DNA of 64,000 bases from Minisyncoccota bacterium (GTDB lineage: Bacteria > Patescibacteriota > Minisyncoccia > Phycocordibacterales > UBA1006): positions 57,892-121,891 of the forward strand of contig DASWYC010000002.1 in assembly GCA_036405175.1 (NCBI GenBank), read 5' to 3'. The translations under genes and the position numbers were made by a program. Below, piece after piece: positions 984 through 49,665 of this stretch. Position 1 is the stretch's first letter; each line of letters starts with the position of its first letter. The notes under the pieces were generated by a model, which was not told the DNA's origin, ran no database searches, and was given only the letters and a program-made list of their open reading frames with translations.

Positions 984-1403
984 TTAATTAAGAAGCCCGT
1001 ACTCTTTGGCCATTGTAATAAGACGAGGAATAAATACAATCGCATAAATCACCGCAGAGGTAATGAATGCAATCAAAACTGCTCCCGCTGCAACATCTTT
1101 AGTATCGCGTGCATACGGATGAAAATCAGGAGAGGTAAGATCAATGTCAATTTCTATGGCTGAATTGAATGCTTCAGAAGCCATAACAAATCCCATTGAG
1201 AAAATGAGGATTGCCCATTCGGCAGTATTTACCTTGAAGTAGCATCCAAGAATAATAACCACGATACTTACCGCAATATGTACCCAAAAGTTATGCTGAG
1301 TTCTAACAAGTACCCATAAGCCACGAGATGCATGGGTAAGACTCTGGAAACGTTTAATAACACTAAAGCGTTTTTCTTCTGAATAATTGGTTGTCTGATT
1401 CAT
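984..1403 (-). CDS. dgkA: prokaryotic diacylglycerol kinase / undecaprenol kinase family protein
   Basis: 139 aa, 3 TM helices. The ASEAFNSAIE...D.....AKD.AAGAVL pattern is typical of the DgkA family. Confidence 0.6.
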   Translation of the reverse strand: MNQTTNYSEEKRFSVIKRFQSLTHASRGLWVLVRTQHNFWVHIAVSIVVIILGCYFKVNTAEWAILIFSMGFVMASEAFNSAIEIDIDLTSPDFHPYARDTKDVAAGAVLIAFITSAVIYAIVFIPRLITMAKEYGLLN

Positions 1404-3297
1404 GAAGAAAGTATATCACGCATATGAAGTGGGTGGACAAGTGGCACAAAAACGAGTTATCTTGTATAGTTGCTATAAGACTATGAAATCAAAACCGCAG
1501 CAATTTTTAGACAGAATGAATAAGGAATACATAAAGCTCCATAAGGTGTACGAGGAGTACTTCTGGACCTCATATATGGGAGACACATCGGTTAATCCTC
1601 AAAAAGATGAAGCGTTGGCGGCTCGAGATGCGTTTAGGGCGGATTCCACATACATTGCACAAATCAAAGATTTGTTGCCGAAAGCTAACAAGCAGGAACA
1701 GTCTCGCCTTAAGCTATGGCTTAAATTCTTTGAAGCGTATCAATCACCTCAAGAAGGGATTGAATTAAAGAAAAAGATTGATGCACTTGAAACTAAAATT
1801 ACTAAAAAACGAGCAACCCGCAAAGAAGGATATATTGATCCCGTTACCCAAAAGTTTGTTAAGGCATCGGAGAATAAAATGTCTACGATGACACGAACTC
1901 ATCCTGATGAAAAAATTCGCAAAGCATGTTTTGAGGCACGCGAAAAGTTGGCAGAGGATTGCTTGCCTGAATATATTGAAATGATTAAACTTCGCAATGA
2001 GTATGCACGCATGCTTGGTTTTGAAGACTTTTATGCATATAAAGTTGAGCGTGAAGATGGGATGACCAAAAAAGAACTATTTGCAATTTTTGATGCAATA
2101 TATGAAAAGACAAAATACGCATTTAAAGATTTAAGAACACTTGAAAAGAAAATGCCTAATCTAAGAAAGCCATGGAATTTTGGATACATGATGACCGGAA
2201 ACTTTACCAAAGAAGAAGATCAATATTTTCCATTTGAAGAAGCGGTTACTCGATGGGGTCGCTCATTTGCTGCGTTAGGAATAGACTTTCAAGGAGGAAA
2301 ACTGCAACTTGATTTGCTTGATCGGCAGGGAAAGTATGACAACGGATTCTGTCACTGGCCAGATATGGTGAGCTTTGAAAACGGAAAACGAAAACCAGGA
2401 AGTTCAAACTTTACCTGTAACGTGGTAATGGGGCAAGTAGGTTCTGCGTTTCAGGGATATCATACGCTGTTCCACGAAGGTGGACATGCTGCGCACTTAT
2501 TGAACTCTGAACAACAGGATGTTTGCGTCAATCATGAGTATGCACCAATGGCGTCATCATGGGCAGAAACACAAAGTATGTTCTTGGATACGATGTTAAG
2601 CAGTATTGAATGGCTCACACGATATGCGCATAATACACAAGGAGATGAATATCCGTTTGAGCTCTTTGTTCGTAGGGTTGAAAAGCTGGGTCCGTTACGA
2701 CCGCTCAATCTTAACGGAATCATCTTTGTTTCAAGTTTTGAGAAGGAGATTTATGAAACAAAAAATCTAACTGCCGAAAAGGTTAAGAATATTGCTCGTA
2801 AAGCATACAAGAAATATTTTGATCGAAGTGAAGATTCTCTGTATGCATTGAACGTACCTCATATTTATGCTTGGGAAAATTCAGGATCATATCACGGATA
2901 CGGTTTGGCAGAACTTGCTCTTGAGCAATGGCGGGATTACTTCTACAAAAAGTATGGATATATTGTTGATAATCCTCAAGTGGGTAAAGAGATGAAAAAA
3001 GTATGGGCGCTTGGCTCATCAAAAACATTTAAAGAATGTGTACAAATGGCAACTGGTAAAAAATTGAGCCCACAAGCATTTGTTCGTGTTGTTACTCGTT
3101 CAAAAGATACAATCATTAAGCTAGCTCAACAGCGTATTAAAAAACTTAACGAGGTTAAGGTTTCTCGTGCGGCTATAAAGCTTAATGCTCAGATAGCAAT
3201 GGTGAGCGGAAAAGAAACTATCGCAACAAATGCAAAGAGTTTTGAGGACATGGCAGAGAAATACGGAAAATGGCTCAAAACTCAGGTAGAAAAGTAG
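1402..3297 (+). CDS. M3-family zinc metallopeptidase (oligoendopeptidase F-like)
   Basis: HEGGHAAH motif (HExxH) with a downstream Glu (AETQS) as in M3 peptidases; 631 aa. The start overlaps the dgkA start (CATG), so the true start may be an internal Met (M28 or M39). Confidence 0.5.
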   Translation: MKKVYHAYEVGGQVAQKRVILYSCYKTMKSKPQQFLDRMNKEYIKLHKVYEEYFWTSYMGDTSVNPQKDEALAARDAFRADSTYIAQIKDLLPKANKQEQSRLKLWLKFFEAYQSPQEGIELKKKIDALETKITKKRATRKEGYIDPVTQKFVKASENKMSTMTRTHPDEKIRKACFEAREKLAEDCLPEYIEMIKLRNEYARMLGFEDFYAYKVEREDGMTKKELFAIFDAIYEKTKYAFKDLRTLEKKMPNLRKPWNFGYMMTGNFTKEEDQYFPFEEAVTRWGRSFAALGIDFQGGKLQLDLLDRQGKYDNGFCHWPDMVSFENGKRKPGSSNFTCNVVMGQVGSAFQGYHTLFHEGGHAAHLLNSEQQDVCVNHEYAPMASSWAETQSMFLDTMLSSIEWLTRYAHNTQGDEYPFELFVRRVEKLGPLRPLNLNGIIFVSSFEKEIYETKNLTAEKVKNIARKAYKKYFDRSEDSLYALNVPHIYAWENSGSYHGYGLAELALEQWRDYFYKKYGYIVDNPQVGKEMKKVWALGSSKTFKECVQMATGKKLSPQAFVRVVTRSKDTIIKLAQQRIKKLNEVKVSRAAIKLNAQIAMVSGKETIATNAKSFEDMAEKYGKWLKTQVEK

Positions 3298-4721: not shown

Positions 4722-5849
4722 CTAATTAACTTTTGTGATTTTAGTAAACCCAAATACATCACTTTTTACATCATACGCATACGGAAGCGCGGTGTAGTTT
4801 TGTACAATTTTTTCTACAAATGTATCAACAAATAATTTTGTTTTGTCATTCTCGTTCATATTCTTATACGTGCCAAAGACTGCAAAATATACATGGCCTT
4901 TCTCAGTATTAATTACACCTGCAAGATTTTGGTGATAGTTGATAAAGCCAGACTTAAGTACAACATTATCTGCACTTGAAAGTCCTGCAAGACGCTTACT
5001 TACTACACCCGGATCACGCCCCGGTACTGACATTACATCGGTGATCTGAAGCCCTACGTTATGAAGTGATTGCTCAAAATGTTTAAGGACTTTTAACGTA
5101 AGCTCACAGGTGGTGTAGTTATTTTTAAGTCCCGATCCGGTTCCAAACTTTACAGTGTTCGTATCTGCGCCATAAACTTGCTTCATGTATTTTTGAAACT
5201 CTGAATAGCCACCAGCTCGTTCAATGAGTACATCAGAAGAAATATTGGTTGAGTAATCATTAATCTGCTTCATAAGTATTGAAAGCGGTGCTGACTCAAA
5301 CGTATAGATACTTCCAGCTCCAGAATACTTTTTAGCTGAGTATGCTACTGCAAGATTTTTATCTACTGATATATTTTTATTATTCTTAAGCGCGCTTATC
5401 AGTGCAGACTTCACGGTTGGAGATGTTTGTTTCCAGTTAAAATAAAAGTTAGGAGAAAATACGATCTTTTTAATTGGTGATGAAGGACTCATTTGCTTAA
5501 TGACAGCTTCAAGATTTTCAATCACAAAGTGTGGATCGCCGCCACCGTTAATATAAAGTGTTGAGTCGTTCAAAATAAAGTCGGTTTTGTAGCGAAAATC
5601 TTTTCCAAGTTTTGCGAGTGCAAAATCGAATGTATATACTTTTGAAACTGAAGCCGGAATAACGCGTGCTGTTGGTCTATATGATTGCGTTGTTCCATCC
5701 GGATCTTGAAGACAGAATGCTTGCTGAGATATGGCAAGATTATTTTTTGCAACCAGTTGTTTATGAATTGTACTAAGATCTGCAGCAAACGTGAATTGAG
5801 GTATCAATGCACCAAGAATCAAAAGAGGGGTGAAAATTCGTAACATCAT
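4722..5849 (-). CDS. dacB: D-alanyl-D-alanine carboxypeptidase/endopeptidase, PBP4 (peptidase S13) family
   Basis: Signal peptide, SVSK (SxxK) active-site motif and GGGDP motif typical of DacB/PBP4. Confidence 0.7.
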   Translation of the reverse strand: MMLRIFTPLLILGALIPQFTFAADLSTIHKQLVAKNNLAISQQAFCLQDPDGTTQSYRPTARVIPASVSKVYTFDFALAKLGKDFRYKTDFILNDSTLYINGGGDPHFVIENLEAVIKQMSPSSPIKKIVFSPNFYFNWKQTSPTVKSALISALKNNKNISVDKNLAVAYSAKKYSGAGSIYTFESAPLSILMKQINDYSTNISSDVLIERAGGYSEFQKYMKQVYGADTNTVKFGTGSGLKNNYTTCELTLKVLKHFEQSLHNVGLQITDVMSVPGRDPGVVSKRLAGLSSADNVVLKSGFINYHQNLAGVINTEKGHVYFAVFGTYKNMNENDKTKLFVDTFVEKIVQNYTALPYAYDVKSDVFGFTKITKVN

Positions 5850-12876: not shown

Positions 12877-13272
12877 TTATTGAATTGCGAGAGATGAATA
12901 ATGAGAGAGTCGAAGCGACTTTTTAAGTGACCATGCAAAGCTGAACGTTGCCATAATCACCAAGATGATACTTGCAAGCGGAAGGCTTTCAAGAAGAATT
13001 ATGCCAAGATCTTTTAGAACATTCACGAGGGCACCACTTGATAATGCAAGCGAAAGATATTGATATAGTCCGCTTGATGCTGTTTGGATAACCAAATGTA
13101 TGATGGCAGCAAGGGTTCCGATTCCAGAAGCCCACATAAGTCTTTTATACAGTAGCGCTGATCCAGATGATTGTTGGACAGAATAAATACTTTGTTTAAT
13201 GCGTTCAGCTAAGCCATGAGGTGTTGAGATCTCTGATTGCAACAGTGTTCGCAATGTACGATGGTTATTCAT
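12877..13272 (-). CDS. putative membrane anti-sigma factor (assigned by position only)
   Basis: 131 aa, immediately downstream of the ECF sigma gene, about 45-aa cytoplasmic N-terminus followed by TM segments. No zinc anti-sigma motif. Confidence 0.3.
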   Translation of the reverse strand: MNNHRTLRTLLQSEISTPHGLAERIKQSIYSVQQSSGSALLYKRLMWASGIGTLAAIIHLVIQTASSGLYQYLSLALSSGALVNVLKDLGIILLESLPLASIILVIMATFSFAWSLKKSLRLSHYSSLAIQ

Positions 13273-13310
13273 ATACTATCTATACGTATAAGAATTAAGT
13301 TTTGGTGCAG

Positions 13311-13862
13311 CTATTGATTGAGTTCTTGCTTAAGTTTGCTGAGCGCACGATGGTGCCAACTTTTTACCGTGTTCATAGGGGTTTCTAAAACGTCACTAAT
13401 TTCTTGAAAGGTAAGTTCTTGTTGATAGTGAAGGATGAGTACAGATTTGTAATTGATTGGAAGATTGTTAAGATGATTTTCAAGAAACACTGAATCAAAT
13501 TGCTGATCAAGAATATCAACCACAGAAGTATGATCGCTGGGAAGTGAAGATTCAAAATCTTGATCATTAGATGAAAGTTGAGAAAAGGTGAATGATTTCT
13601 TTTTACGAAGATGATCCGTTGCAGTGTTGCGTGCAATAGTAAAGAGCCATGCTCTAAAACTTTGTGCGGAGTTGTATTGTGTAAACCGTTGCCACATTTT
13701 AATGAATGTTTCTTGGGTGGCGTCTTCCGCAAGTGCGGCATCATTACTTATGCGATAAATAAAGTTGTAGAGCGGGACAGTGTAGCGTTCAATTAATATA
13801 TTGAGCGCCTGAGAATCTTTAAGAAGAATTTTTTCTACGAGTGCGGTATCCGAAAGTTCCAT
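13311..13862 (-). CDS. RNA polymerase ECF-type sigma factor (sigma-70 regions 2 and 4)
   Basis: Region 2 FIKMWQRF...FRAWLFTIARNTATDHLRKK and a C-terminal region-4 HTH. Confidence 0.8.
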   Translation of the reverse strand: MELSDTALVEKILLKDSQALNILIERYTVPLYNFIYRISNDAALAEDATQETFIKMWQRFTQYNSAQSFRAWLFTIARNTATDHLRKKKSFTFSQLSSNDQDFESSLPSDHTSVVDILDQQFDSVFLENHLNNLPINYKSVLILHYQQELTFQEISDVLETPMNTVKSWHHRALSKLKQELNQ

Positions 13863-14061
13863 AGGTACACTCTATCATGATGATCAGAAAATAAAGAAGC
13901 AAAAAGTATTTTGTTATGAAATAACTTCATGAAGTGTCAATGATGTGGAAAATGATTTTTTGGATATACTAATCAAGACGAAGAAATTTTTCTTTAGAAA
14001 GATTTTTTAGCAAATTTACAATTTTATATCAAGTTTCACTATTAAACCAATCGTTTCTACA

Positions 14062-14211
14062 ATGGACAAGACATTTTTCCATGCGAGCCAAAATTTGGCA
14101 GCTCAAACAAACTCAACTCCTGATTCCATGAACGCAAGAACCAATATTAAAGACGTAGGAAAAGCAGCTGGTTTTGATAATTGTATGACTTTCGGTGCCG
14201 GCAGCTTCTAA
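14062..14211 (+). CDS. small ORF A (49 aa, MDKTFFHASQNLAAQTNSTPDSMNARTNIKDVGKAAGFDNCMTFGAGSF), paralog of ORF B
   Basis: Preceded by a conserved 17-bp motif plus TATACT and a conserved leader; followed by its own terminator. No signal peptide. Confidence 0.3.
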   Translation: MDKTFFHASQNLAAQTNSTPDSMNARTNIKDVGKAAGFDNCMTFGAGSF

Positions 14212-14236
14212 GCGAAATAAACTGAAGCTCAACCAA

Positions 14237-14278
14237 AAAACTGTTTTATCATTTTATCGATAAAACAGTTTTTATTTT
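14237..14278 (+). terminator. rho-independent terminator (AAAACTGTTTTATC / GATAAAACAGTTTT + T-tract)
   Basis: Perfect 14-bp inverted repeat. Confidence 0.6.
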
Positions 14279-14490
14279 GCTAAAGTTTTCAAAAGATAGA
14301 TGACAATAGAATAAGTAAAGAGCGGAGTTGTATATATTATTACAGCATACTCTAGTAGTATGTCAATAATGTGGAAAAAGGGAACGCAAGTATACTTGAA
14401 AGGAAGATGAAATTCTGATTGAAAAAACAGAAATTCAAGCTTGTTTATAATTTCATATCCAATTTTCACCATTAAACTAATATTTTAGTT

Positions 14491-14631
14491 ATGCCAAAAT
14501 CAAATCTTGCAAGCCAATCATTGGCAGCTTACAAAAAAACCGTACAATTCTTCCATGCCAAAGATATTAATGCCTCTTATGAAGATGCTGGTGGCCTTAT
14601 CGAAGACAGAGTGAGTTCCTATCGTGACTAA
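14491..14631 (+). CDS. small ORF B (46 aa, MPKSNLASQSLAAYKKTVQFFHAKDINASYEDAGGLIEDRVSSYRD), paralog of ORF A
   Basis: Shares the FFHA and SQxLAA motifs and the upstream leader with ORF A. Confidence 0.3.
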   Translation: MPKSNLASQSLAAYKKTVQFFHAKDINASYEDAGGLIEDRVSSYRD

Positions 14632-14653
14632 TTTAAGCGCCCGTCCGTAGTTG

Positions 14654-14696
14654 CCTACTATTCAAATGTCAAATGAATAGTAGGTATTTTATTTTC
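14654..14696 (+). terminator. rho-independent terminator (CCTACTATTCA / TGAATAGTAGG + T-tract)
   Basis: Perfect 11-bp inverted repeat. Confidence 0.6.
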
Positions 14697-14761
14697 TGAG
14701 AAAAAAGTTATCAAAACAAAAACCACTCAATCACTTGAGCGGCTTTTTAATTTCTTAATTT

Positions 14762-15277
14762 TTACATTTTGGTTTCAAGACTTGCAACTTGCGCACAATC
14801 TACCGGTGGAAGATCCATATACGTAAGATTCTTTGTATCAATATATACATAAGTACCATCTCCGCGATCTTTCATGCCACCAAAACCAATATGAGCTCCT
14901 TCTGCATCAACAACAAAGATGAGTTCTTCAGGATTCGTCATACCTTCTGCGCTTGCAGTCCAGGTTGCACGTACCGCTGCCATAGTTGGATTTGATTCAA
15001 TCGTTCCTGTGTATGGTCCAATCTTTTTATCTTTCTCGGCAGGAAGGATGTGGAATTCTCCAGACGTTGCGGTGTTGTTAATAGTGAGGGTGAGCCAAGC
15101 AATATCTTTCATGGTCGTACCGGTCTCCCTATAAAAACAGAGCTTGGTAGTCTCTGAGGCGGTTGGGTTAATAGGGGTTGGGGTAGTGGTTTGTGATGAA
15201 GGTTTGAGCCAGATAGCGCTTACGATTAAAAGAGCTCCACACAAAAGTGCCACTTTAAGTACGTCATTCTTGGTCAT
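14762..15277 (-). CDS. hypothetical secreted/membrane-anchored protein
   Basis: Start set at MTKNDVLKVALLCGALLIVSAIW (signal/anchor), then a T/P-rich linker. Confidence 0.4.
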   Translation of the reverse strand: MTKNDVLKVALLCGALLIVSAIWLKPSSQTTTPTPINPTASETTKLCFYRETGTTMKDIAWLTLTINNTATSGEFHILPAEKDKKIGPYTGTIESNPTMAAVRATWTASAEGMTNPEELIFVVDAEGAHIGFGGMKDRGDGTYVYIDTKNLTYMDLPPVDCAQVASLETKM

Positions 15278-15363
15278 ACTCTCTAAGTATACAGGAGTAG
15301 GGTAAAAAGTCCGATTTATGAGAAAACCCTTCAATTGACCACTTTCCAATTGTTTGCTATTAT

Positions 15364-15555
15364 TTGAACATTATGAAAGCATTCGCCCAGGACTTACAAC
15401 GAGAAATCACCAAAATCAACTGGCCTTCACGAGGTACCGTTTTTTCTTACACCGTAACGGTTTTGATTGTGTCGGTGGTGGTTGGATACATCTTGGGAGC
15501 TTTTGACAGCCTCTTTACCGCTGGACTTAAGTATTTGCTTTCATCACCTCTTTAA
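15364..15555 (+). CDS. secE: preprotein translocase subunit SecE
   Basis: 63-aa single-TM protein immediately upstream of nusG in the conserved secE-nusG-rplK arrangement. Confidence 0.7.
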   Translation: MNIMKAFAQDLQREITKINWPSRGTVFSYTVTVLIVSVVVGYILGAFDSLFTAGLKYLLSSPL

Positions 15556-15558
15556 TAT

Positions 15559-16107
15559 ATGAGCAAGCAATTAGAAACCGGTGAGCGCAACTGGTATGCC
15601 ATTCACACCTATTCTGGGTATGAAGATGCTGTTAAGCGCAATCTTACGCAGCGTGCAGAATCAATGGGAATGACCGACTATATTTTTGAAGTTATTGTTC
15701 CAACCGAGAAGAAGATTAAGATTAAAAACGGAAAACGTGTTGAGGAAGAAGAAAAAATCTATCCTGGATATGTTTTGGTAGACATGATTGTTACCGATGA
15801 GTCATGGTACTTGGTGCGAAACACTCCACGAGTTACCGGATTCGTAGGATCAGGTGTTCAGCCGGTTCCCGTATCAGAAGAAGAAGTTGCTCGCTTGCTT
15901 GCCAACATGAAGCCAAAGAGTGATGCAAATTACGAAGTAGCCTATGAAGTTGGTGAAGTAGTTAAGATCGGTGAAGGACCATTTAAAGACTTTGAAGGAA
16001 AGATCTCAGAAATTAATCGCCAAACCGGAAAGCTTAAAGTACTTGTATCAATGTTTGGTCGCGAAACACCGGTAGAACTTGATTTCCTTCAGATTAAAAA
16101 GTTGTAA
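15559..16107 (+). CDS. nusG: transcription termination/antitermination factor NusG
   Basis: NGN domain (WYAIHTYSGYE) and C-terminal KOW motif (GEVVKIGEGPFKDFEGKI). Confidence 0.9.
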   Translation: MSKQLETGERNWYAIHTYSGYEDAVKRNLTQRAESMGMTDYIFEVIVPTEKKIKIKNGKRVEEEEKIYPGYVLVDMIVTDESWYLVRNTPRVTGFVGSGVQPVPVSEEEVARLLANMKPKSDANYEVAYEVGEVVKIGEGPFKDFEGKISEINRQTGKLKVLVSMFGRETPVELDFLQIKKL

Positions 16108-18442: not shown

Positions 18443-18460
18443 GGTGATATACTTTAGGGT

Positions 18461-18877
18461 ATGTTCATACATGATTATATCTATGTTCCATTTATAAATA
18501 TTTTTATATTCTATCCTTGGATTACTTATATTCTTATTATTATTGGGTCTTTTCTTGCTCGTTTAAGAAATAAAAAGAAAAACCAACAGATTGATATTCT
18601 CTATTGGGTGTTCACTGGAATTGCAGCAGTCTCACTAATTGGGCTCAACCTTACGTTTACTAGCCTTAGCACAGGTTTCTTTATCGCTGAACTTGTGATT
18701 GCTGCTGTTCTGCTGACAATTAAATTCTTTTTTAAAAAAGAAAATTTTGTTGTGAACTATTTGCTGCTGATAATTACTATCCCCGCTATTATTTCTATAA
18801 TCGTAATTATTATGACTTTATTGCACCCTCCATGTATGGGATGTATAGACCTTCCACGTGTTCCACTTCCAATTTAA
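18461..18877 (+). CDS. small 4-TM membrane protein ending HPPCMGC...VPLP; tandem paralog 1
   Basis: Aligns throughout with the next gene (WVFTGIAAVSL vs YVFLGISVLAL; FIAELVIAAVLL vs FVAEIIIMIVLL; HPPCMGC vs HPDCMGC; C-terminal VPLP). Confidence 0.5.
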   Translation: MFIHDYIYVPFINIFIFYPWITYILIIIGSFLARLRNKKKNQQIDILYWVFTGIAAVSLIGLNLTFTSLSTGFFIAELVIAAVLLTIKFFFKKENFVVNYLLLIITIPAIISIIVIIMTLLHPPCMGCIDLPRVPLPI

Positions 18878-18958: not shown

Positions 18959-19420
18959 ATGCACATTATTTCTATGCTACTTCCATGGGTTTCAGGTATT
19001 TTAATTTGTATTGGACTTATTATTGCATGGCAAAGGAGTAAAAAGAGAAATCGTTCTTTAAATATAACCTATTATGTATTTTTAGGTATTTCAGTACTTG
19101 CCCTGATCGTAATAGACCGATTTTTTAGAGGTATGCTTATAAGTCTGTTTAGTAATACTGTTCATCCAGGCTACTTCGTAGCTGAAATCATTATTATGAT
19201 TGTATTATTAATAATAAGATTTATTCCTAAAAAAGGAAATTTAAATTTTATTGTAAATCATCTCTTGTATATATTTGCTATTCCAGTTATTCTCGGCACG
19301 ATTGATTTGGTGAATGCGGTTCGTCATCCTGACTGTATGGGTTGCCCAATTTACATTAATGATGATCCCACCAGAGAATTCAATGCCATAGAAGGATTGA
19401 GACATGTGCCTTTGCCCTAA
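18959..19420 (+). CDS. small 4-TM membrane protein ending HPDCMGC...VPLP; tandem paralog 2
   Basis: See paralog 1. Confidence 0.5.
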   Translation: MHIISMLLPWVSGILICIGLIIAWQRSKKRNRSLNITYYVFLGISVLALIVIDRFFRGMLISLFSNTVHPGYFVAEIIIMIVLLIIRFIPKKGNLNFIVNHLLYIFAIPVILGTIDLVNAVRHPDCMGCPIYINDDPTREFNAIEGLRHVPLP

Positions 19421-19926: not shown

Positions 19927-22900
19927 ATGAAACAGCCTGACCTGAGCAAGTATTTTGAAGGATTTGAAAAATCTAAGCGTTCGCACGATGAGGAAAATAT
20001 CCTCAATTTTTGGCAAGAAAATCAAATCTTTGAACAATCACTTAAAAAACCATCACCAAAAGGAGAGTATGTTTTTTATGAAGGTCCTCCAACGGCAAAC
20101 GGCCGTCCAGGAATTCACCACTTTTTAGCACGCTCATTTAAAGATGCAATTCCTCGCTATAAAACAATGCAAGGATATCATGTAGCGCGTAAGGCTGGTT
20201 GGGATACACACGGTCTTCCTGTTGAACTTCAGGTAGAAAAAGCGCTTGGGTTGGCTAATAAAAAAGAAATTGAACAATACGGTGTAGAAAAGTTTAATGA
20301 AGCGTGTAAAGAATCAGTGTGGCAGTATCAGTCTGAGTGGGAAGCTATGACCGCCCGCATGGGGTATTGGATTGATATGGAAAATCCATATATCACCTAT
20401 GAGACTCCATATATTGAATCAGTATGGAATATCCTTAAGACAGTTGATGACAAGCAGCTTCTCTTTAAGGATTACAAAATTATTCCATGGTGTCCTCGTT
20501 GTGGAACGGGACTTTCTTCTCATGAGCTTTCACAGGGTTATGAAGATGTAAAAGATATCTCAGTAACAGCAGCATTTAAAGTGACGGGCTCAATTGTTAA
20601 TCTTCCAGAAAATACTTCTATTCTTGCATGGACAACAACACCGTGGACGCTCTTTGGAAACGTTGCGCTTGCCGTAGGAAATACTATTAATTATGTTCTC
20701 GTTCAAGATAGTTCACGTGACAATGCACACTTTATTATCGCTGAAGATCGTTTAAGTTTTGCATATCCTGATCAATCAATAATTAAGGTTATTGGAACGT
20801 ATACAGGAAGTGAATTGGTTGGCACAAAGTATCAACCATTGTTTCCATATGCTGCAGAGTTTATTCAATCACAAACAACTCCTGAACAATTTTCAAAAGC
20901 ATACACGGTATACGATGCAGATTTTGTAACAACCAGTGACGGAACGGGTGTTGTCCACACTGCAGTAATGTATGGAGCTGACGATTTTGATCTTGGTACA
21001 AAATTAGGATTGCCAAAAGTTCATATGGTAAACCAAGACGGAACGTACAAAGAGGGTCTTAAAGATTTTACCGGACGATTTGTTAAAGACGAGCAGGTGA
21101 CCATTGATATTCTCAAAGAACTCACTGTATATAATTCTCTTTTTTCAAAACTCAAGTACGAACACTCATATCCTCACTGTTGGCGCTGTAAAACGCCGGT
21201 GCTGTATTACGCGCGTGACTCATGGTTTATTAGAATGTCTCAACTTGCAGACACGTTGCAGCAAGAAAATGAAAAGATTAATTGGAATCCAAGCCACATC
21301 AAAGAGGGGCGTTTTGGAGAATGGCTCCGTGGTCTTAAAGACTGGGGATTGTCTCGCGAACGGTATTGGGGAACACCACTTCCAATTTGGGAATCAGAAG
21401 AGGGTGGACGGATTACGGTGGGTTCACTTGAAGAGTTAAAAACATATTCAACAAAACCAACCGTTGATCTTATTTTGATTCGTCACGGGTTTGCAACTCA
21501 TTTGCGTGACGGAATCTTTGCCGGTGATCGTGCAAACGATACCGCAACACTTACTGAAGAAGGAATTAAACAGGTACAAGAGCTTGCAAATACGTGTGGC
21601 GATACTATTAAATCTGCTGACGTGATTTTTGTTAGTCCATTTAAGCGTACGCAGGAAACCATTACAATCTTGCAGGATGCGCTTGGTCTTACTCAAGAAG
21701 TTATTGTTGATGATCGTTTAGTTGAAATGAATTTTGGAGCATTTAATGGTAAGAAAAACTCAGAACGCGATGGCTACTTTGATAATGATCAGTACACTAA
21801 AGCAAATCCAGAAGGTGAATCACTCTTTGACGTGCAAAAACGCGTAACGGCGTTCTTGAAAGATGTTGAATCTCAATATGCTGGTAAAAAAGTGATCGTA
21901 ATTAGTCACGATGATACGCTCAGTTTGCTATGTTCTGTTGCACGTGGAATTGTTGATAAAGTTCCTCAGATTCAATATTTTAATCCTGCAGAGTGTCGTA
22001 CCGTAACTTCAACAAATTTGCCAGTAAGCCATGACGGGTTTGTGGATCTCCATAAGCCATATATTGATAATATTGTGCTCAAAAAAAATGAGCGTATATA
22101 TACACGCGTACCAGAAGTGATTGATGTGTGGTTTGATTCTGGGTCAATGCCATTTGCACAACAGCATGCACCATTTGCTGGGGAGCTTACCAGTGCTCAA
22201 TATCCAGCAGATTACATAACCGAAGGTCTTGATCAAACCCGCGGATGGTTTTATACCTTGCTTGCTATTGGATGTTTGATGGGTAAAGGTTCACCATATA
22301 AGAATGTAATTTGCTTAGGACTTTTGCTTGATGACAAGGGGCAGAAAATGTCTAAATCAAAGGGGAACATTGTGTCGCCATGGAAGGTCATGTCTGGCGT
22401 TGGATCAGATGTTGCCCGCATGTGGTTGTATAGCGTGAACCAGCCAGGAGAATCAAAGAGTTTTGACATGGCAATGTTGCAGGATCTTGAGCGTAAATTG
22501 TTTGTGATCTTTGAAAACTGTTTAGAATTTTATAAGCTTTCACCCGATGTTCAAACATCATACAATGCTGATCTTCTTAAGAATGCATCATACTTGGATA
22601 AATGGTTAATAGCATACATGAATACTGTTAAGAAAATGGTGACCGAATCACTTGATGCATACGATCTTTTCACCGCAACTCGCACCATCCGCGATTGTGT
22701 GACCGAATTGTCTCAATGGTATGTGCGTCGTTCGCGTGAAGCACTTAAAGAAGAAGGGGTAGTTGGGGATGCAACGCGTCATACCTACCGCAATGCACTC
22801 CGCGATATTGCCATAATGTTGGCACCGTTTACCCCATTCCACGCAGAAAAATTCTTCCAAGACGTGAAGTTTGAAAATGACCCAGCGTCAGTACATCTTG

Positions 22901-23406
22901 CTGATTGGGTAATATTTAATACTGATAGTTCATCAGATATCTTGAATGAAATGGATCAGACACGCACTGTGATCTCGGAAATTCTTAAGAAGCGTGACGA
23001 GGTAAAAATTAAAGTACGCCAACCGCTCGCTTCAGTGACACTTAATCGCTCATTTAACATTGAACTTCAAGAACTTATTAAAGATGAGGTAAATGTAAAG
23101 GAAATAAAGGTTGATGAAAATGCGTTTGAAACAACACTTGATACAAATCTCACCCAAGAACTTATTGAGGAAGGAATTGCTCGTGAAATCACGCGTGCTA
23201 TTCAATCAATGCGTAAGAATAATAATCTTTCACCAGATGATGCGTTTACGGTTACACTCCAAGATTCAGAACTCGTGCAAAAGATCCTGGATACCTATGG
23301 TGATGATATCTCAAAGAAAACAAAAACTACTCTTGCAACCGCCGCATCGATTACTGATTCAGAAAAAATTACCACTAATCTTGGCGATATTCTCATTCAA
23401 AAGTAA
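19927..23406 (+). CDS. ileS: isoleucine--tRNA ligase (eukaryote-like type 2) with an inserted histidine-phosphatase (PGAM-like) domain of about 190 aa
   Basis: PTANGRPGIHHF (HIGH), WDTHGLP, KMSKS (GQKMSKSKGN). The insert between ...EELKTYSTKPTVD and LHKPYIDN carries RHG, SPFKRTQET, LVEMNFGAFNG and SHDD motifs. Confidence 0.9.
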   Translation: MKQPDLSKYFEGFEKSKRSHDEENILNFWQENQIFEQSLKKPSPKGEYVFYEGPPTANGRPGIHHFLARSFKDAIPRYKTMQGYHVARKAGWDTHGLPVELQVEKALGLANKKEIEQYGVEKFNEACKESVWQYQSEWEAMTARMGYWIDMENPYITYETPYIESVWNILKTVDDKQLLFKDYKIIPWCPRCGTGLSSHELSQGYEDVKDISVTAAFKVTGSIVNLPENTSILAWTTTPWTLFGNVALAVGNTINYVLVQDSSRDNAHFIIAEDRLSFAYPDQSIIKVIGTYTGSELVGTKYQPLFPYAAEFIQSQTTPEQFSKAYTVYDADFVTTSDGTGVVHTAVMYGADDFDLGTKLGLPKVHMVNQDGTYKEGLKDFTGRFVKDEQVTIDILKELTVYNSLFSKLKYEHSYPHCWRCKTPVLYYARDSWFIRMSQLADTLQQENEKINWNPSHIKEGRFGEWLRGLKDWGLSRERYWGTPLPIWESEEGGRITVGSLEELKTYSTKPTVDLILIRHGFATHLRDGIFAGDRANDTATLTEEGIKQVQELANTCGDTIKSADVIFVSPFKRTQETITILQDALGLTQEVIVDDRLVEMNFGAFNGKKNSERDGYFDNDQYTKANPEGESLFDVQKRVTAFLKDVESQYAGKKVIVISHDDTLSLLCSVARGIVDKVPQIQYFNPAECRTVTSTNLPVSHDGFVDLHKPYIDNIVLKKNERIYTRVPEVIDVWFDSGSMPFAQQHAPFAGELTSAQYPADYITEGLDQTRGWFYTLLAIGCLMGKGSPYKNVICLGLLLDDKGQKMSKSKGNIVSPWKVMSGVGSDVARMWLYSVNQPGESKSFDMAMLQDLERKLFVIFENCLEFYKLSPDVQTSYNADLLKNASYLDKWLIAYMNTVKKMVTESLDAYDLFTATRTIRDCVTELSQWYVRRSREALKEEGVVGDATRHTYRNALRDIAIMLAPFTPFHAEKFFQDVKFENDPASVHLADWVIFNTDSSSDILNEMDQTRTVISEILKKRDEVKIKVRQPLASVTLNRSFNIELQELIKDEVNVKEIKVDENAFETTLDTNLTQELIEEGIAREITRAIQSMRKNNNLSPDDAFTVTLQDSELVQKILDTYGDDISKKTKTTLATAASITDSEKITTNLGDILIQK

Positions 23407-28914: not shown

Positions 28915-28964
28915 CTTTCCACTGAACTCAGGGGTTCATGAAAAAATACTTGGTGTGATATACT

Positions 28965-30068
28965 GTGCCTATGAAAGATGGCAAGATGGAAATCTCAATC
29001 CGATCAACCACACTTATTAAAATTGGTGTTTTTGCTGGAATTGCATACCTAGTAACGCAAGTGTGGAGCTTCCTTCTAATTATCCTCTGTGCTGTGGTAT
29101 TGGCAGCATTCGTTGAAAGTCTTGCTGATGGATTGGTAAAATATAAAATTCCACGAGGACTCGCAATTGTGATGGTGTATTTGATTATGATTGTTGCAAT
29201 CAGTGGATTGCTCTATGCCCTTATCCCGCTCTTTGCAAGTGAGCTCTCAGGAATTTTTGCATTGCTTCCAAACAGTGAAGAAGGTTCATCTATTTTTCAA
29301 GCATTTGGTGACTTTATTAATGCTAAAGAAGTATTTTCACAGGTAAGCCAAGGTGGCGGAGCGGCAGCAGGATCAGGGCTAGCTGATCTTAAGAGTTTGG
29401 TTTCATTATTGTCTGGCGGAATTCTTAAAACTATTTCTTCAAGTTTAGGAGGAATTGTCAACGCAGTGTTGTTGGTAATCATTTCACTCTATTTAGCAAT
29501 GCAGAAGCGTAGTGTTCATAAGTTTTTAAAAGCAGTAACACCCTATGAATATGAACCGTATGCAATCTCGCTCTGGGCTCGCACCGAGAAAAAAATTGGT
29601 TCATGGTTTAAGGGGCAGCTTCTTTCAGCATTCATTGTTGCCGTACTTACTGCTATCGGACTCTTCTTCTTGAAAGTTCCGTATGTTATTTTGCTTTCAG
29701 CATTTGCGGCCATCATGGGACTTATTCCGTTTGGAATTATTTTGGCAACTATTCCTGCGCTCATTATTGCGTTCTTGGCGGGAGGGTTTGAACTCTTTGC
29801 ACTTACCGGGTTGCTATACTTTGTGATCCAGCAGATTGAAGGATACGTAATTCATCCGTTGGTGCTCAATAAGGCTACCGGAGTTCCGTCACTCATTATT
29901 ATGTTGTCTTTGATTGTTGGAGGAAAGATTGCAGGAATTGTTGGTGTATTCCTTGGTTTGCCAATCTCAATTATGCTTACCGAGATTGTAAACGATCTTG
30001 AAGCTAAAAAACAAAATAAACGTGCGTTATTTGAAACTCCGGTTTCAGAAGAAATTACTGCTGAATAA
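28965..30068 (+). CDS. AI-2E family transporter (PerM/YhhT/TqsA-like, UPF0118)
   Basis: 367 aa, about 8 TM helices, characteristic topology and motifs. Confidence 0.7.
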   Translation: MPMKDGKMEISIRSTTLIKIGVFAGIAYLVTQVWSFLLIILCAVVLAAFVESLADGLVKYKIPRGLAIVMVYLIMIVAISGLLYALIPLFASELSGIFALLPNSEEGSSIFQAFGDFINAKEVFSQVSQGGGAAAGSGLADLKSLVSLLSGGILKTISSSLGGIVNAVLLVIISLYLAMQKRSVHKFLKAVTPYEYEPYAISLWARTEKKIGSWFKGQLLSAFIVAVLTAIGLFFLKVPYVILLSAFAAIMGLIPFGIILATIPALIIAFLAGGFELFALTGLLYFVIQQIEGYVIHPLVLNKATGVPSLIIMLSLIVGGKIAGIVGVFLGLPISIMLTEIVNDLEAKKQNKRALFETPVSEEITAE

Positions 30069-49041: not shown

Positions 49042-49083
49042 TCAATCTGTTCTTATTAAAGAATATTTGATATACTGAGGTTA

Positions 49084-49665
49084 ATGGAGACCCTTTCTAA
49101 GATATTTCAGTCGGTATACCGTGTTAAATTAATGCGCCTTTTTCTCTTTAATCCTCAAACTACCTATACTATTCAGGCGCTTATAACAACATCACGCATT
49201 TCGCGGGCTCAAGCACTTAAGGAAATTAAAATTCTTGAATCTGCCGGGTTTATTAAAAAGGCAAAAGATGGTAAAGCAAATGTGAATACATATAGCCTTG
49301 AGCCAAAATTTCCGCTCATTGAACCTCTTAAATCACTTATTATTGATTCTGAACTTATTCGCACAAAAGATATTGCTGAAAAGTTTACCAATGTTGGCGT
49401 GATTAAGCTGCTCATTCTTTCAGGAATCTTTACCAAAAATGAGTCACGTCAGGTAGATATTTTTGTGGTAGGGGATAAGGTAGATAAACAGAAGTTTATG
49501 AAAGCCATGATGGTGCTTGAATCAGAAATTGGAAAAGAGCTTCGATATTGTTTATTTACCCCAGAAGAATATGCGTATCGTATTAATATGCACGATTCAT
49601 TGGTGCTTGATGTGATTAACTATCCAAACCAGCGTATTATTGATAAGATTTCACCTCGTTCATAA
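49084..49665 (+). CDS. winged-helix regulator-like protein with C-terminal nucleotidyltransferase-like region
   Basis: N-terminal wHTH-like (TIQALITTSRISRAQALKEIKILESAGFIKK); C-terminal DIFVVGD motif. Confidence 0.35.
   Translation: METLSKIFQSVYRVKLMRLFLFNPQTTYTIQALITTSRISRAQALKEIKILESAGFIKKAKDGKANVNTYSLEPKFPLIEPLKSLIIDSELIRTKDIAEKFTNVGVIKLLILSGIFTKNESRQVDIFVVGDKVDKQKFMKAMMVLESEIGKELRYCLFTPEEYAYRINMHDSLVLDVINYPNQRIIDKISPRS

What the first reader, a model, noticed from the sequence alone, without database searches (positions are those of the whole stretch)
13925..14700. Two tandem paralogous small-ORF cassettes with a conserved 17-bp upstream motif, conserved leader and private terminators, divergent from an ECF sigma / ABC exporter operon
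The roughly 900-bp spacer after the ECF sigma gene contains two copies, about 415 bp apart, of the same module:
- A 17-bp motif GTCAAT(G/A)ATGTGGAAAA (13936..13952 and 14362..14378; 16/17 identical). Each is followed after exactly 12 nt of unrelated sequence by TATACT.
- About 50 nt later, a conserved leader (TTTACAATTTTATATCAAGTTTCACTATTAAACCAAT vs TTGTTTATAATTTCATATCCAATTTTCACCATTAAACTAAT).
- A 49-aa ORF (14062..14211) and a 46-aa ORF (14491..14631) that share the FFHA and SQ(N/S)LAA motifs, in permuted order.
- A perfect-stem rho-independent terminator after each ORF.

The spacer between motif and TATACT is unconserved while the motif is nearly perfect, which argues for selection on the motif (a regulator or sigma site) rather than recent duplication. 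On the opposite strand the motif reads TTTTCCACATYATTGACA, containing a TTGACA -35 hexamer pointing toward the ECF sigma gene.

Both peptides contain a palindromic GCCAAnnnTTGGC in the SQxLA codons. Both lack signal peptides. They sit next to a MacB-type exporter, a family that often exports small peptides. They may be regulated small proteins or peptide substrates of the adjacent exporter, or small RNAs with incidental ORFs.
Basis: seen in the sequence. Interest (0 to 1): 0.7.

Follow-up and report, generated by a model that had tools for sequence, protein, structure and literature searches.

The report
Two co-regulated orphan small-gene cassettes
Next to a stress sigma-factor gene, an uncultured Paceibacterota (CPR) bacterium carries two copies of a small stand-alone gene unit with the same 18-bp control box; each probably encodes a fast-evolving orphan mini-protein of unknown function, which is real but not extraordinary.

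Summary
Each cassette has an 18-bp box (17/18 identical), 12 unconserved nt, TATACT, an 85-88-nt leader, a 49- or 46-codon ORF and a perfect-stem terminator.

New context:
- TATACT is this genome's ordinary -10 hexamer. Most genes here are leaderless and lack a Shine-Dalgarno sequence (TGnTATACT, 6-8 nt, ATG).
- The cassettes are atypical. They have no TG extension, carry a conserved box at about -42 to -25, and have a long leader.
- The only close relative found (sigma factor 83% identical) has one cassette. It keeps the box (17/18), the TATACT, most of the leader, the start-codon position and the 3' flank.
- That relative's 44-codon ORF is unrecognisably different. This is the only stretch in 7.8 kb of synteny where the alignment collapses.
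- The peptides have no homologues in 5.8 billion or 1.84 billion proteins, and no Pfam, NCBIfam or Rfam match.
- The box occurs nowhere else in about 78 kb of this genome. Matches in metagenome and viral collections look like chance.

Best reading (about 0.5): two co-regulated genes for small, fast-diverging proteins, whose promoters depend on an unidentified factor that binds the box. No evidence was found for the suggested links to the ECF sigma factor or to the MacB-type exporter. Interest is modest.

The parts
13935..13952 (+). 18-bp box, copy 1 (TGTCAATGATGTGGAAAA). Inferred position is about -42 to -25 relative to the transcription start.
   Evidence: (D5). It is 17/18 identical to copy 2 and 17/18 identical to the orthologous box in L071.
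13965..13970 (+). -10 hexamer TATACT of cassette 1, without the TG extension. Inferred start is about 13977.
   Evidence: TATACT is the genome's consensus -10 for leaderless genes.
13977..14061 (+). Inferred 5' leader of cassette 1, about 85 nt. It contains the conserved block 14011-14052 (TTTACAATTTTATATCAAGTTTCACTATTAAACCAAT), which itself holds a second possible -10 (TACAAT, 14017-14022).
   Evidence: Identity to the L071 leader is 35/44 and 28/43 by block. No Rfam hit and no supported consensus structure.
14062..14211 (+). ORF1, 49 aa (MDKTFFHASQNLAAQ...). NCBI annotates it as hypothetical protein VGE63_00550.
   Evidence: Codon score is 0.135 per codon, best of six frames. ORF length against shuffles gives p=0.047. 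No homologue apart from itself.
14087..14099 (.). 13-bp perfect palindrome GCCAAAATTTGGC inside ORF1 (codons S-Q-N-L-A).
   Evidence: D1. The flanking 9+9 nt are almost identical in copy 2, including wobble positions.
14236..14273 (+). Intrinsic terminator of cassette 1: 15-bp perfect stem, 8-nt loop, T run. The A run upstream would allow it to work in both directions.
   Evidence: (I2).
14361..14378 (+). 18-bp box, copy 2 (TGTCAATAATGTGGAAAA).
14391..14396 (+). -10 hexamer TATACT of cassette 2. Inferred start is about 14403.
14403..14490 (+). Inferred 5' leader of cassette 2, about 88 nt. It contains the conserved block 14441-14482, which includes TATAAT at 14446-14451.
14491..14631 (+). ORF2, 46 aa (MPKSNLASQSLAAYKK...). 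NCBI annotates it as hypothetical protein VGE63_00555.
   Evidence: Codon score is 0.239 per codon. ORF length gives p=0.055. No homologue in 5.8 billion or 1.84 billion proteins. AlphaFold2 on the single sequence gives one long helix, pLDDT 73.
14513..14525 (.). 13-bp perfect palindrome GCCAATCATTGGC inside ORF2.
   Evidence: D1.
14654..14684 (+). Intrinsic terminator of cassette 2: 11-bp perfect stem, 9-nt loop, followed by TATTTTATTTT.
   Evidence: I11. The 3' flank is 82% identical to that of the single L071 cassette.
13311..13877 (-). Context, not part of the cassettes: the divergent ECF-type sigma factor gene (13311-13862) with its own leaderless promoter TGaTAGAGT (13877-13869), then 6 nt, then ATG.

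Best explanation
These are two paralogous, independently transcribed small-gene cassettes of a lineage-restricted, very fast-evolving family.

Each unit consists of:
- a promoter made of the 18-bp box, 12 nt and the genome's standard -10 hexamer TATACT
- an 85-88-nt untranslated leader
- a 46- or 49-codon ORF
- its own intrinsic terminator, giving a transcript of about 300 nt

Inferred mechanism:
- These promoters lack the TG extension that the genome's constitutive leaderless promoters have, and the genome uses no -35 consensus.
- The box occupies about -42 to -25. It is therefore most likely the docking site of a sequence-specific factor that makes the promoters active and co-regulates both cassettes.
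- That factor is most likely an activator sitting in place of a -35 element. Less likely it is an alternative sigma factor or a repressor.
- The ORFs are translated by Shine-Dalgarno-independent internal initiation, as operon-internal genes in this genome must be.
- The products are small hydrophilic, probably helical proteins. Their sequence is under little conservation or under diversifying pressure.

Shown: the anatomy, the patchy conservation, retention of the ORF and the start position, and orphan status.
Inferred: the transcription start, the existence and identity of the box-binding factor, translation, and any cellular role.
For: Anatomy and paralogy.

Conservation between the copies:
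- The box (17/18) and TATACT (6/6) are kept.
- The N12 spacer between them is 1/12 identical.

Comparison with the ortholog L071 (sigma factor 83% identical, syntenic):
- It keeps the box (17/18), the same 12-nt spacing, TATACT and the leader.
- It has an ATG aligned to the ORF1 start column, 84 nt from the inferred transcription start, and an ORF of 44 codons.
- It has its own terminator.

Evidence for coding:
- An ORF of 44-49 codons fills the leader-to-terminator interval in all three cassettes, although the ORF bodies share no DNA similarity.
- Against dinucleotide shuffles, ORF length gives p=0.047, 0.055 and 0.041.
- Codon scores are 0.135, 0.239 and 0.023 per codon. Each is the best of six frames.
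- Random 40-70-aa ORFs score -0.226 +/- 0.236. Real genes score 0.406 +/- 0.173.
- The L071 peptide shows weak similarity to ORF2 (z=2.46, p=0.016).

Promoter context:
- TATACT is the house -10 hexamer, and leaderless TGnTATACT promoters are the norm.
- The cassette promoters lack the TG extension.

Against an RNA element: no Rfam match, tRNA or conserved leader structure.
Against: - Comparative evidence rests on only two genomes and three cassettes. The ORF-length p-values for the two window copies suffer from ascertainment, because the region was flagged for its ORFs.
- Codon scores sit at the low end of real genes. The L071 ORF scores below the 5th percentile of real genes.
- The peptides have no homologue anywhere and no family match.
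- A leader of about 85 nt without a Shine-Dalgarno sequence is unusual in a mostly leaderless genome, so translation is not assured.
- The nucleotides around the palindrome are conserved between the paralogs even at wobble positions. That hints at a nucleic-acid-level constraint rather than a protein-level one.
- No candidate box-binding protein was identified, and the box was found at no third site in about 78 kb of the genome.
- A second -10-like hexamer (TACAAT, TATAAT, TACAAT) is conserved in the leader of all three cassettes. The true start could therefore be about 50 nt further downstream.
Confidence: 0.5

Rival explanations
1. The functional products are small RNAs of about 300 nt, non-coding or dual-function. 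The active part is the conserved 5' portion of about 110 nt (leader block, and in the window the palindromic hairpin). The ORFs are incidental or secondary.
For: - Conservation is concentrated in the non-coding 5' part and the 3' terminator region, while the ORF body is unalignable.
- A long leader is atypical for mRNAs in this leaderless, Shine-Dalgarno-less genome.
- The 9+9 nt flanking the palindrome loop are identical between paralogs, including wobble positions. The three central nucleotides all differ yet keep the symmetry.
- The whole transcripts fold somewhat better than shuffles (z=-2.85 and -1.92), though largely because of the terminators.
Against: - There is no Rfam match.
- RNAalifold finds only an 8-pair AU-rich hairpin, with a consensus energy of about -0.5 kcal/mol.
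- The palindrome block is absent from L071 (9/26 identity).
- An ORF of 44-49 codons starting at the same position is kept in all three cassettes, with codon scores above those of random ORFs.
- A duplex scan against gene 5' ends gave no outstanding shared target.
Confidence: 0.25
2. The box plus TATACT is the promoter recognised by the adjacent ECF sigma factor, so the cassettes belong to its regulon.
For: - The cassettes are adjacent to and divergent from the sigma gene, and this arrangement is conserved in L071.
- The box overlaps the -35 region and contains GGAAAA, which is loosely like the GGAAC/TGAAAC -35 elements of ECF promoters (from established knowledge of SigW/SigE-type promoters).
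- The promoters lack the housekeeping TG extension.
Against: - The -10 is exactly the housekeeping hexamer, not a CGT/GTC-type ECF -10.
- GGAAAA lies only 12 nt from TATACT, whereas ECF promoters use 16-17 nt.
- Nothing is conserved at 16-17 nt after TGTCAA.
- The sigma gene itself has a housekeeping-type leaderless promoter and no copy of the box in its own orientation.
- The box is absent upstream of any gene of the sigma/ABC operon and from the rest of the window.
- Relatives with the same sigma operon lack the cassettes.
- The genome has at least one other ECF-type sigma factor.
Confidence: 0.15
3. The ORFs encode exported peptides (pheromone, bacteriocin-like or other substrates) handled by the neighbouring MacB-type ABC exporter. 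Their hypervariability reflects diversifying selection.
For: - The exporter operon is close by.
- The ORF body is the single most divergent segment in 7.8 kb of synteny while its flanks are conserved. Such a pattern is known for pherotype and bacteriocin loci (from established knowledge).
Against: - The peptides have no signal peptide, no hydrophobic or cationic character, and no shared leader with the L071 peptide.
- There is no double-glycine leader consensus, and no C39 peptidase domain on the transporter, which is MacB_PCD/FtsX plus a separate ATPase.
- No modification enzymes are adjacent.
- The operon occurs without the cassettes in L075 and L076.
Confidence: 0.07
4. The cassettes are duplicated, decaying intergenic sequence. 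The similarities are what remains of a duplication and have no present function.
For: The ORFs are orphans. Other short intergenic spacers are also 84-100% identical between the two genomes, so flank identity of 82-88% is not exceptional in itself.
Against: - The paralogs are saturated outside discrete blocks (N12 1/12) yet keep 17/18 in the box and 6/6 in TATACT at identical spacing.
- The same features persist in L071.
- Perfect-stem terminators and open reading frames are maintained in all three cassettes.
Confidence: 0.05

Closest known systems
Activator-dependent promoters in which an 18-bp site replaces the -35 element (PhoB 'pho box' type, OmpR/PhoB family)
   Same: An 18-bp conserved block ends about 10-12 bp upstream of a good -10 hexamer, in a promoter that lacks the other upstream element. 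Two TG-initial half-sites (TGTCAAT and TGGAAAA) start 11 bp apart.
   Different: - The half-sites match each other at only 4 of 7 positions.
- No response regulator or other DNA-binding candidate was found in the window.
- The comparison with the pho box is from memory and is a lead, not a test.
Small-peptide genes next to their regulator, with a regulator box in the promoter (SHP/Rgg, ComS/ComR, PrgQ/PrgX)
   Same: Short ORFs are transcribed divergently from a transcription-factor gene. A conserved box overlaps the -35 region, an ABC exporter is nearby, and the peptide sequences diverge quickly.
   Different: - The neighbouring regulator here is an ECF sigma factor, not an RRNPP protein.
- The peptides are hydrophilic and 44-49 aa long, with no conserved C-terminal signalling core.
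- There is no evidence of export.
ECF sigma factor regulon promoters (SigW/SigM/SigE type)
   Same: The location is next to an ECF sigma / anti-sigma / efflux operon, and the upstream element is G/A-rich (GGAAAA).
   Different: The -10 is the housekeeping TATACT, the spacing is wrong, and there is no autoregulatory copy upstream of the sigma gene.
Type I toxin-antitoxin loci and dual-function small RNAs (such as SR1, SgrS, RNAIII)
   Same: Small ORFs are tandemly duplicated and lineage-specific, with long 5' leaders and strong terminators in an intergenic region.
   Different: - The peptides are not hydrophobic or membrane-active.
- No antisense promoter was found inside the cassettes.
- No conserved RNA structure was found.
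Tandem tiny basic ORFs (MAKRASVQKK..., MAKKKRKVAKK...) divergent from the homologous sigma gene in other Paceibacterota
   Same: The genomic slot and layout are the same: one or two small ORFs, each with its own promoter and terminator, divergent from the ECF-type sigma gene.
   Different: - Those ORFs are 26-43 aa, 35-65% Lys/Arg, and well conserved across lineages. The MAKRA-type ones have leaderless-type promoters.
- The window ORFs are neutral in charge, have leaders, and show no sequence similarity to them.

Membership tests
Any Rfam RNA family | Covariance-model score at or near the family's gathering threshold | tested here: not met
   In 13000-16000, with E up to 10, all hits were noise. 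Nothing within 13977-14700 exceeded 19 bits against gathering scores of 43-382. There were no tRNA or tmRNA genes.
Any described protein family (Pfam, NCBIfam) or any sequenced homologue | A significant profile or sequence match for the peptides | tested here: not met
   - the only hit was a sub-threshold Dermaseptin match (E=0.019, 15 bits against a cut-off of 20.9).
- only self hits in 5.8 billion proteins.
- ORF2 against 1.84 billion representatives gave only itself plus a 23-residue match inside a 1450-aa protein.
- no match in phage records.
Rho-independent (intrinsic) terminator | A stable stem-loop directly followed by a T run at the 3' end of the unit | tested here: met
   - 14236-14273, 15 pairs plus a T run.
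- (I11): 14654-14684, 11 perfect pairs followed by TATTTTATTTT. The consensus scan did not list this one; its loop is 9 nt, above the scan's 3-8-nt limit.
This genome's standard leaderless promoter class | A TATACT-like -10 hexamer | tested here: met
   Exact TATACT occurs in both cassettes and in L071. The class is defined.
This genome's standard leaderless promoter class | A TG extension at -15/-14 and an ATG 6-8 nt after the hexamer | tested here: not met
   - The bases upstream are tgga, caag and taga (L071), with no TG in register.
- No gene-opening ATG lies at 5-9 nt after the hexamer. Copy 2 has only a 3-codon ATG at 10 nt.
ECF sigma-dependent promoter | An AAC-containing -35 element, 16-17 nt of spacer, and a CGT/GTC-type -10. 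There is usually also a copy upstream of the sigma gene itself. | tested here: not met
   By inspection:
- The only conserved downstream element is TATACT, 12 nt after GGAAAA.
- The sigma gene has TGaTAGAGT-N6-ATG and no box in its own orientation.
The defining features of the class are taken from established knowledge, not from a database search.
Double-glycine-leader or RiPP precursor peptides with a dedicated exporter | A conserved N-terminal leader ending in GG/GA, plus a C39-peptidase ABC transporter or modification enzymes nearby | tested here: not met
   - The transporter is MacB_PCD/FtsX plus ABC_tran plus a YknX-like MFP, with no peptidase domain and no modification enzymes.
- The N-terminal similarity of ORF1 and ORF2 (ASQxLAA) is absent from the L071 peptide.
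Type I toxin-antitoxin | A small hydrophobic membrane peptide plus an overlapping antisense RNA | tested here: not met
   - The peptides are hydrophilic with no transmembrane stretch (sequences).
- There is no minus-strand promoter inside the ORFs or leaders, apart from the palindromic AAGTATACTT at 14394, which points into the spacer.
Protein-coding gene (generic) | An ORF maintained across homologous loci, with coding-like codon usage | tested here: inconclusive
   - An ORF is present in 3 of 3 cassettes (p about 0.04-0.055 each).
- Codon scores lie between those of random ORFs and real genes.
- Only weak peptide similarity exists between ORF2 and the L071 ORF (p=0.016).
- No polymorphism data are available: all contigs from each of the two organisms are identical.

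The most novel reading that the evidence does not exclude
The cassettes form a hypervariable peptide locus. Conserved regulatory and terminator flanks act as recombination or expression scaffolds around a peptide-coding core that is exchanged or driven to diversify between close lineages. In that case they could be strain-specific signalling or antagonism peptides of an episymbiotic CPR bacterium, functionally tied to the neighbouring ECF / anti-sigma / MacB-type module. That would be a new kind of peptide system in Patescibacteria.
Probability: 0.1. Interest if true: 0.7.

Novelty: new member of a known kind. Interest (0 to 1): 0.35.

Why it matters
If the reading is right, this is a clean example of a regulated promoter in a CPR bacterium. 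Gene regulation and small proteins are essentially unstudied in that group.

- The promoter has a defined 18-bp cis-element in a genome whose other promoters are extended -10 and leaderless.
- The box gives a concrete handle for finding its binding factor, by DNA pull-down or a one-hybrid screen, and a regulon.
- The contrast between conserved flanks and an unrecognisable ORF body marks the locus as a local hotspot of protein innovation or turnover.

The finding rests on two genomes and orphan peptides with no functional clue. Its present value is as a lead, not a discovery.

Tried and rejected
1. Peptide homology. Both ORFs were searched against 5.8 billion proteins, ORF2 against 1.84 billion representatives, all three peptides against Pfam and NCBIfam, and all three by tblastn against phages. 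Nothing was found.

2. The box elsewhere.
- Window with up to 5 mismatches: only the two copies were real.
- 59 loci of sigma homologues from GTDB genomes: none.
- nhmmer with a three-sequence profile of box and leader: none.
- About 14 kb beyond the window ends: none.
- JGI metagenomes with box+N13+TATACT: two hits, both inside unrelated coding sequences and judged chance.
- IMG/VR with the 17-mer: 30 hits. My own estimate for chance is about 20. None had TATACT at the right spacing.

3. RNA element. The Rfam search, tRNA scan, consensus fold and a duplex scan against gene 5' ends gave nothing convincing.

4. Opposite-strand TTGACA as a -35 for the sigma gene. Rejected on spacing (60 nt) and on the absence of any -35 consensus in this genome.

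5. A leaderless mini-ORF starting in the box (ATGTGGAAA = M-W-K). Rejected because its length is 10, 13 and 55 codons in the three cassettes, and no promoter lies at leaderless distance.

6. Population variation for dN/dS. All contigs of each organism are identical in the region.

7. A third relative. It was seen only as a 1.2-kb NusG contig that does not reach the locus.

8. Flank conservation as evidence of special constraint. This was toned down, because other short intergenic spacers are equally conserved between the two genomes.
Full report
**What is there**

The window comes from an uncultured Candidatus Paceibacterota (CPR/Patescibacteria) genome. NCBI annotates the two ORFs as hypothetical proteins VGE63_00550 and VGE63_00555, on a 668-kb contig.

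The spacer runs from an ECF-type sigma factor gene (13311-13862, minus strand; Sigma70_r2/r4_2, best NCBIfam matches SigW/SigM-like) to a convergent 171-aa gene (14762-15277, minus strand). It is about 900 bp long and holds two head-to-tail copies of one module:

| Element | Cassette 1 | Cassette 2 |
|---|---|---|
| Box TGTCAATRATGTGGAAAA | 13935-13952 | 14361-14378 |
| Spacer | 12 nt | 12 nt |
| TATACT | 13965-13970 | 14391-14396 |
| Leader | about 85 nt | about 88 nt |
| ORF | 14062-14211, 49 aa | 14491-14631, 46 aa |
| Terminator | 14236-14273, 15-bp perfect stem | 14654-14684, 11-bp perfect stem, then TATTTTATTTT |

Two corrections apply.
- The box is 18 bp, not 17.
- The ASQ(N/S)LAA segment is collinear in the two ORFs, at the same 426-nt offset as the box. 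Only FFHA is displaced, and a 12-nt match with one mismatch is near chance level by my own estimate.

**Is it more than chance or a recent duplication?**

With up to three mismatches allowed, the box occurs only at these two places in 64 kb. Block-by-block identity between the copies is very uneven:

| Block | Identity, copy 1 vs copy 2 |
|---|---|
| Box | 17/18 |
| N12 spacer | 1/12 |
| TATACT | 6/6 |
| First 40 nt of leader | 24/44 |
| Leader block | 33/43 |
| First six codons | 4/18 |
| Palindrome block | 19/26 |

The 3' regions are unrelated. The duplication is therefore old, and discrete blocks are under constraint.

**The genome's promoter grammar changes the reading of TATACT**

- Only 4 of 69 ORFs of 120 aa or more have a Shine-Dalgarno-like motif.
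- Many genes show (TGn)TATACT, then 6-8 nt, then ATG, which is the pattern of leaderless mRNAs from extended -10 promoters.
- Ten of the 47 TATACT boxes in the window lie 5-9 nt before the ATG of an ORF of 60 aa or more.
- No -35 consensus is visible in 35 such promoters.
- The sigma gene itself has TGaTAGAGT-N6-ATG.

TATACT is thus simply the housekeeping -10 hexamer. The cassette promoters are unusual in three other ways. They lack the TG extension. They carry an 18-bp conserved block at about -42 to -25. They are followed by a long leader rather than an immediate ATG.

The opposite-strand TTGACA cannot be the sigma gene's -35. It lies 60 nt from that gene's -10, and copy 2 has the same box with no gene on the other strand.

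**Comparative evidence**

The peptides have no homologue apart from themselves in 5.8 billion proteins. ORF2 has none in 1.84 billion representatives searched with full HMMER. There are no Pfam, NCBIfam or phage matches.

Sigma homologues in 57 Paceibacterota genomes are at most 43% identical and lack the box.

One close relative exists: sigma factor P0004, 83% identical, on Logan and ENA contigs L071-L074. The locus is syntenic. On one side lie IleRS, ArgRS, L11, NusG and the 170-aa gene. On the other side lie sigma, anti-sigma-like, a 168-aa gene, MFP, ABC, MacB-type permease and DUF5666.

The L071 spacer is only 472 bp and holds one cassette.
- Its upstream region, box (17/18), spacing, TATACT and leader are orthologous to copy 1, at 82-88% identity.
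- Its 3' UTR and terminator are orthologous to copy 2, at 82% identity.
- Its 44-codon ORF (MKQHQFSRKKVAIGFDSLFTGSQDVSAEIHFKETGIQSTVSQKK) shows no DNA similarity to ORF1 or ORF2 (z=0.2).

In a 100-nt sliding comparison over 7.8 kb, identity never falls below 0.62 except between 14032 and 14626, where the alignment collapses. Four-fold degenerate sites of neighbouring genes are 61-85% identical, and other short spacers are 84-100% identical. So the flanks are ordinary for this genome pair. It is the ORF body that is extraordinary: it has been replaced or has diverged faster than silent sites.

Relatives at about 51% sigma identity have the same operon but no cassettes (L075 and L076).

**Coding or not?**

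For coding:
- All three cassettes keep an ATG-initiated ORF of 44-49 codons that fills the interval between leader and terminator. Against dinucleotide shuffles the p-values are 0.047, 0.055 and 0.041. The L071 value is the only one free of ascertainment bias.
- The ATG of L071 aligns with that of ORF1.
- Codon log-likelihood scores are 0.135, 0.239 and 0.023 per codon, and each is the best of six frames. Random small ORFs score -0.226 +/- 0.236, and real genes score 0.406 +/- 0.173.
- The L071 peptide is weakly similar to ORF2 (p=0.016).
- All three peptides have a hydrophobic-[KE]-[DE]-x-G motif at residues 29-35. This pattern was noticed after the fact.

Against coding:
- The peptides are orphans and their codon scores are low.
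- The leaders have no Shine-Dalgarno sequence and are unusual in a leaderless genome.
- Nucleotide-level conservation around the 13-bp palindromes includes wobble positions.

An RNA-element reading finds no support from Rfam, from a consensus fold (an 8-pair AU hairpin at about -0.5 kcal/mol) or from a target scan. AlphaFold2 on ORF2 alone gives a single long helix at pLDDT 73, which says little.

**Most likely mechanism**

I commit, at about 0.5, to two co-regulated small-protein genes.
- A sequence-specific factor binds the 18-bp box, which sits where a -35 element would be.
- That enables the housekeeping RNA polymerase to use a TATACT that lacks the TG extension.
- Transcripts of about 300 nt end at private terminators.
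- The ORFs are translated without a Shine-Dalgarno sequence, as operon-internal genes in this genome must be.

The geometry resembles pho-box-type activator sites: 18 bp, with two TG-initial half-sites 11 bp apart, ending 12 bp before the -10. That resemblance is recalled from memory, and the half-sites match at only 4 of 7 positions.

The transcription start, the factor, translation and the function are all inferred. A second conserved -10-like hexamer in the leader (TACAAT, TATAAT, TACAAT) leaves the true start open.

**Rival explanations**

- sRNA or dual-function RNA: 0.25.
- ECF sigma-dependent promoter: 0.15. The -10 is the wrong type and the spacing is wrong. There is no autoregulatory copy, no box elsewhere in the operon, and the genome has a second ECF-like sigma factor.
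- Exported peptide substrates of the MacB-type pump: 0.07. There are no export features, no peptidase domain, and the operon exists without the cassettes in relatives.
- Functionless remnant: 0.05.

**Verdict**

This is a real, neatly built pair of orphan small-gene units with a genuine cis-regulatory box. No evidence was found for the suggested link to the exporter or to the ECF sigma factor.

In kind it is a new member of a familiar category: lineage-specific small ORFs under a shared operator. The one unusual property is the conserved flanks around a hypervariable ORF core. The evidence base is two genomes. Interest is 0.35.

Noticed in passing
whole window, e.g. 18444-18463, 28955-28973, 49067-49086, 1403-1419(-): The genome is essentially free of Shine-Dalgarno motifs (4 of 69 ORFs) and mostly leaderless. 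The consensus is TGnTATACT, then 6-8 nt, then ATG, with no detectable -35 consensus. Ten of the 47 TATACT boxes lie 5-9 nt before the ATG of a real ORF.
   Followed up: partly
L048:5590-5900(-), L034, L036, L039, L056 and 14 other loci among L012-L069: In 19 of 54 Paceibacterota loci, a conserved, very basic 30-43-aa ORF (MAKRA[ST]...SRSRKT.KR...) lies divergent from the homologous ECF-type sigma gene, in most cases with a -10-like hexamer just upstream of its ATG. Five loci have a second tandem ORF of 26-27 aa (MAKKKRKVAKK...), and at least in L048 each ORF has its own terminator. Neither matches Pfam or NCBIfam. Neither is present in the 64-kb window.
   Followed up: partly
window 14032-14626 versus L071 about 5668-5840: This is the only stretch in 7.8 kb of synteny where the two genomes cannot be aligned. 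About 600 bp in the window (two ORFs plus the inter-cassette region) correspond to about 170 bp in L071 (one unrelated ORF). The boundaries lie inside the leader and at the ORF2 stop codon.
   Followed up: yes
window 14087-14099 and 14513-14525: There are perfect 13-bp palindromes, GCCAAA-A-TTTGGC and GCCAAT-C-ATTGGC. The three central bases all differ between the copies, yet the symmetry is kept. The flanking 9+9 nt are almost identical, including wobble positions. The palindrome is absent from L071. It could be a protein-binding site or a hairpin; its role is unexplained.
   Followed up: partly
window 14272-14472 (-): A 66-aa ORF called by gene finders on the opposite strand spans box 2 and the copy 2 promoter. 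Its codon score is -0.095 per codon, so it is probably a spurious call.
   Followed up: partly
window 19927-23406 (+): The isoleucyl-tRNA synthetase (1159 aa) has a histidine-phosphatase domain (PF00300, His_Phos_1) annotated within it. The L071 relative has it too.
   Followed up: no
window 18461-18877 and 18959-19420 (+): Two tandem paralogous membrane proteins (138 and 153 aa) share a C-terminal HP[PD]CMGC motif, and each has its own leaderless TGATATACT or TGATATGCT promoter. In L071 this slot instead holds a methyltransferase gene on the other strand, so it is another variable island.
   Followed up: no
L112:13514-14038 (-), about 8 kb beyond the window's right end: The same genome has a second ECF-type sigma factor gene (174 aa), followed by a 277-aa gene. 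No copy of the 18-bp box lies near it.
   Followed up: partly
L034, L036, L039, L048, L056, about 60-75 nt upstream of the sigma ATG: A conserved element AAAACTGTG(T/C)ATAAC (GTGGATAAC in L048) lies between the sigma gene and the first basic small ORF. In L034 and L048 it is accompanied by a CGCATTCGTGCG-type palindrome ahead of the small ORF's TATAAT. This may be a regulator site in those lineages. No convincing similarity to the window's box was found.
   Followed up: no
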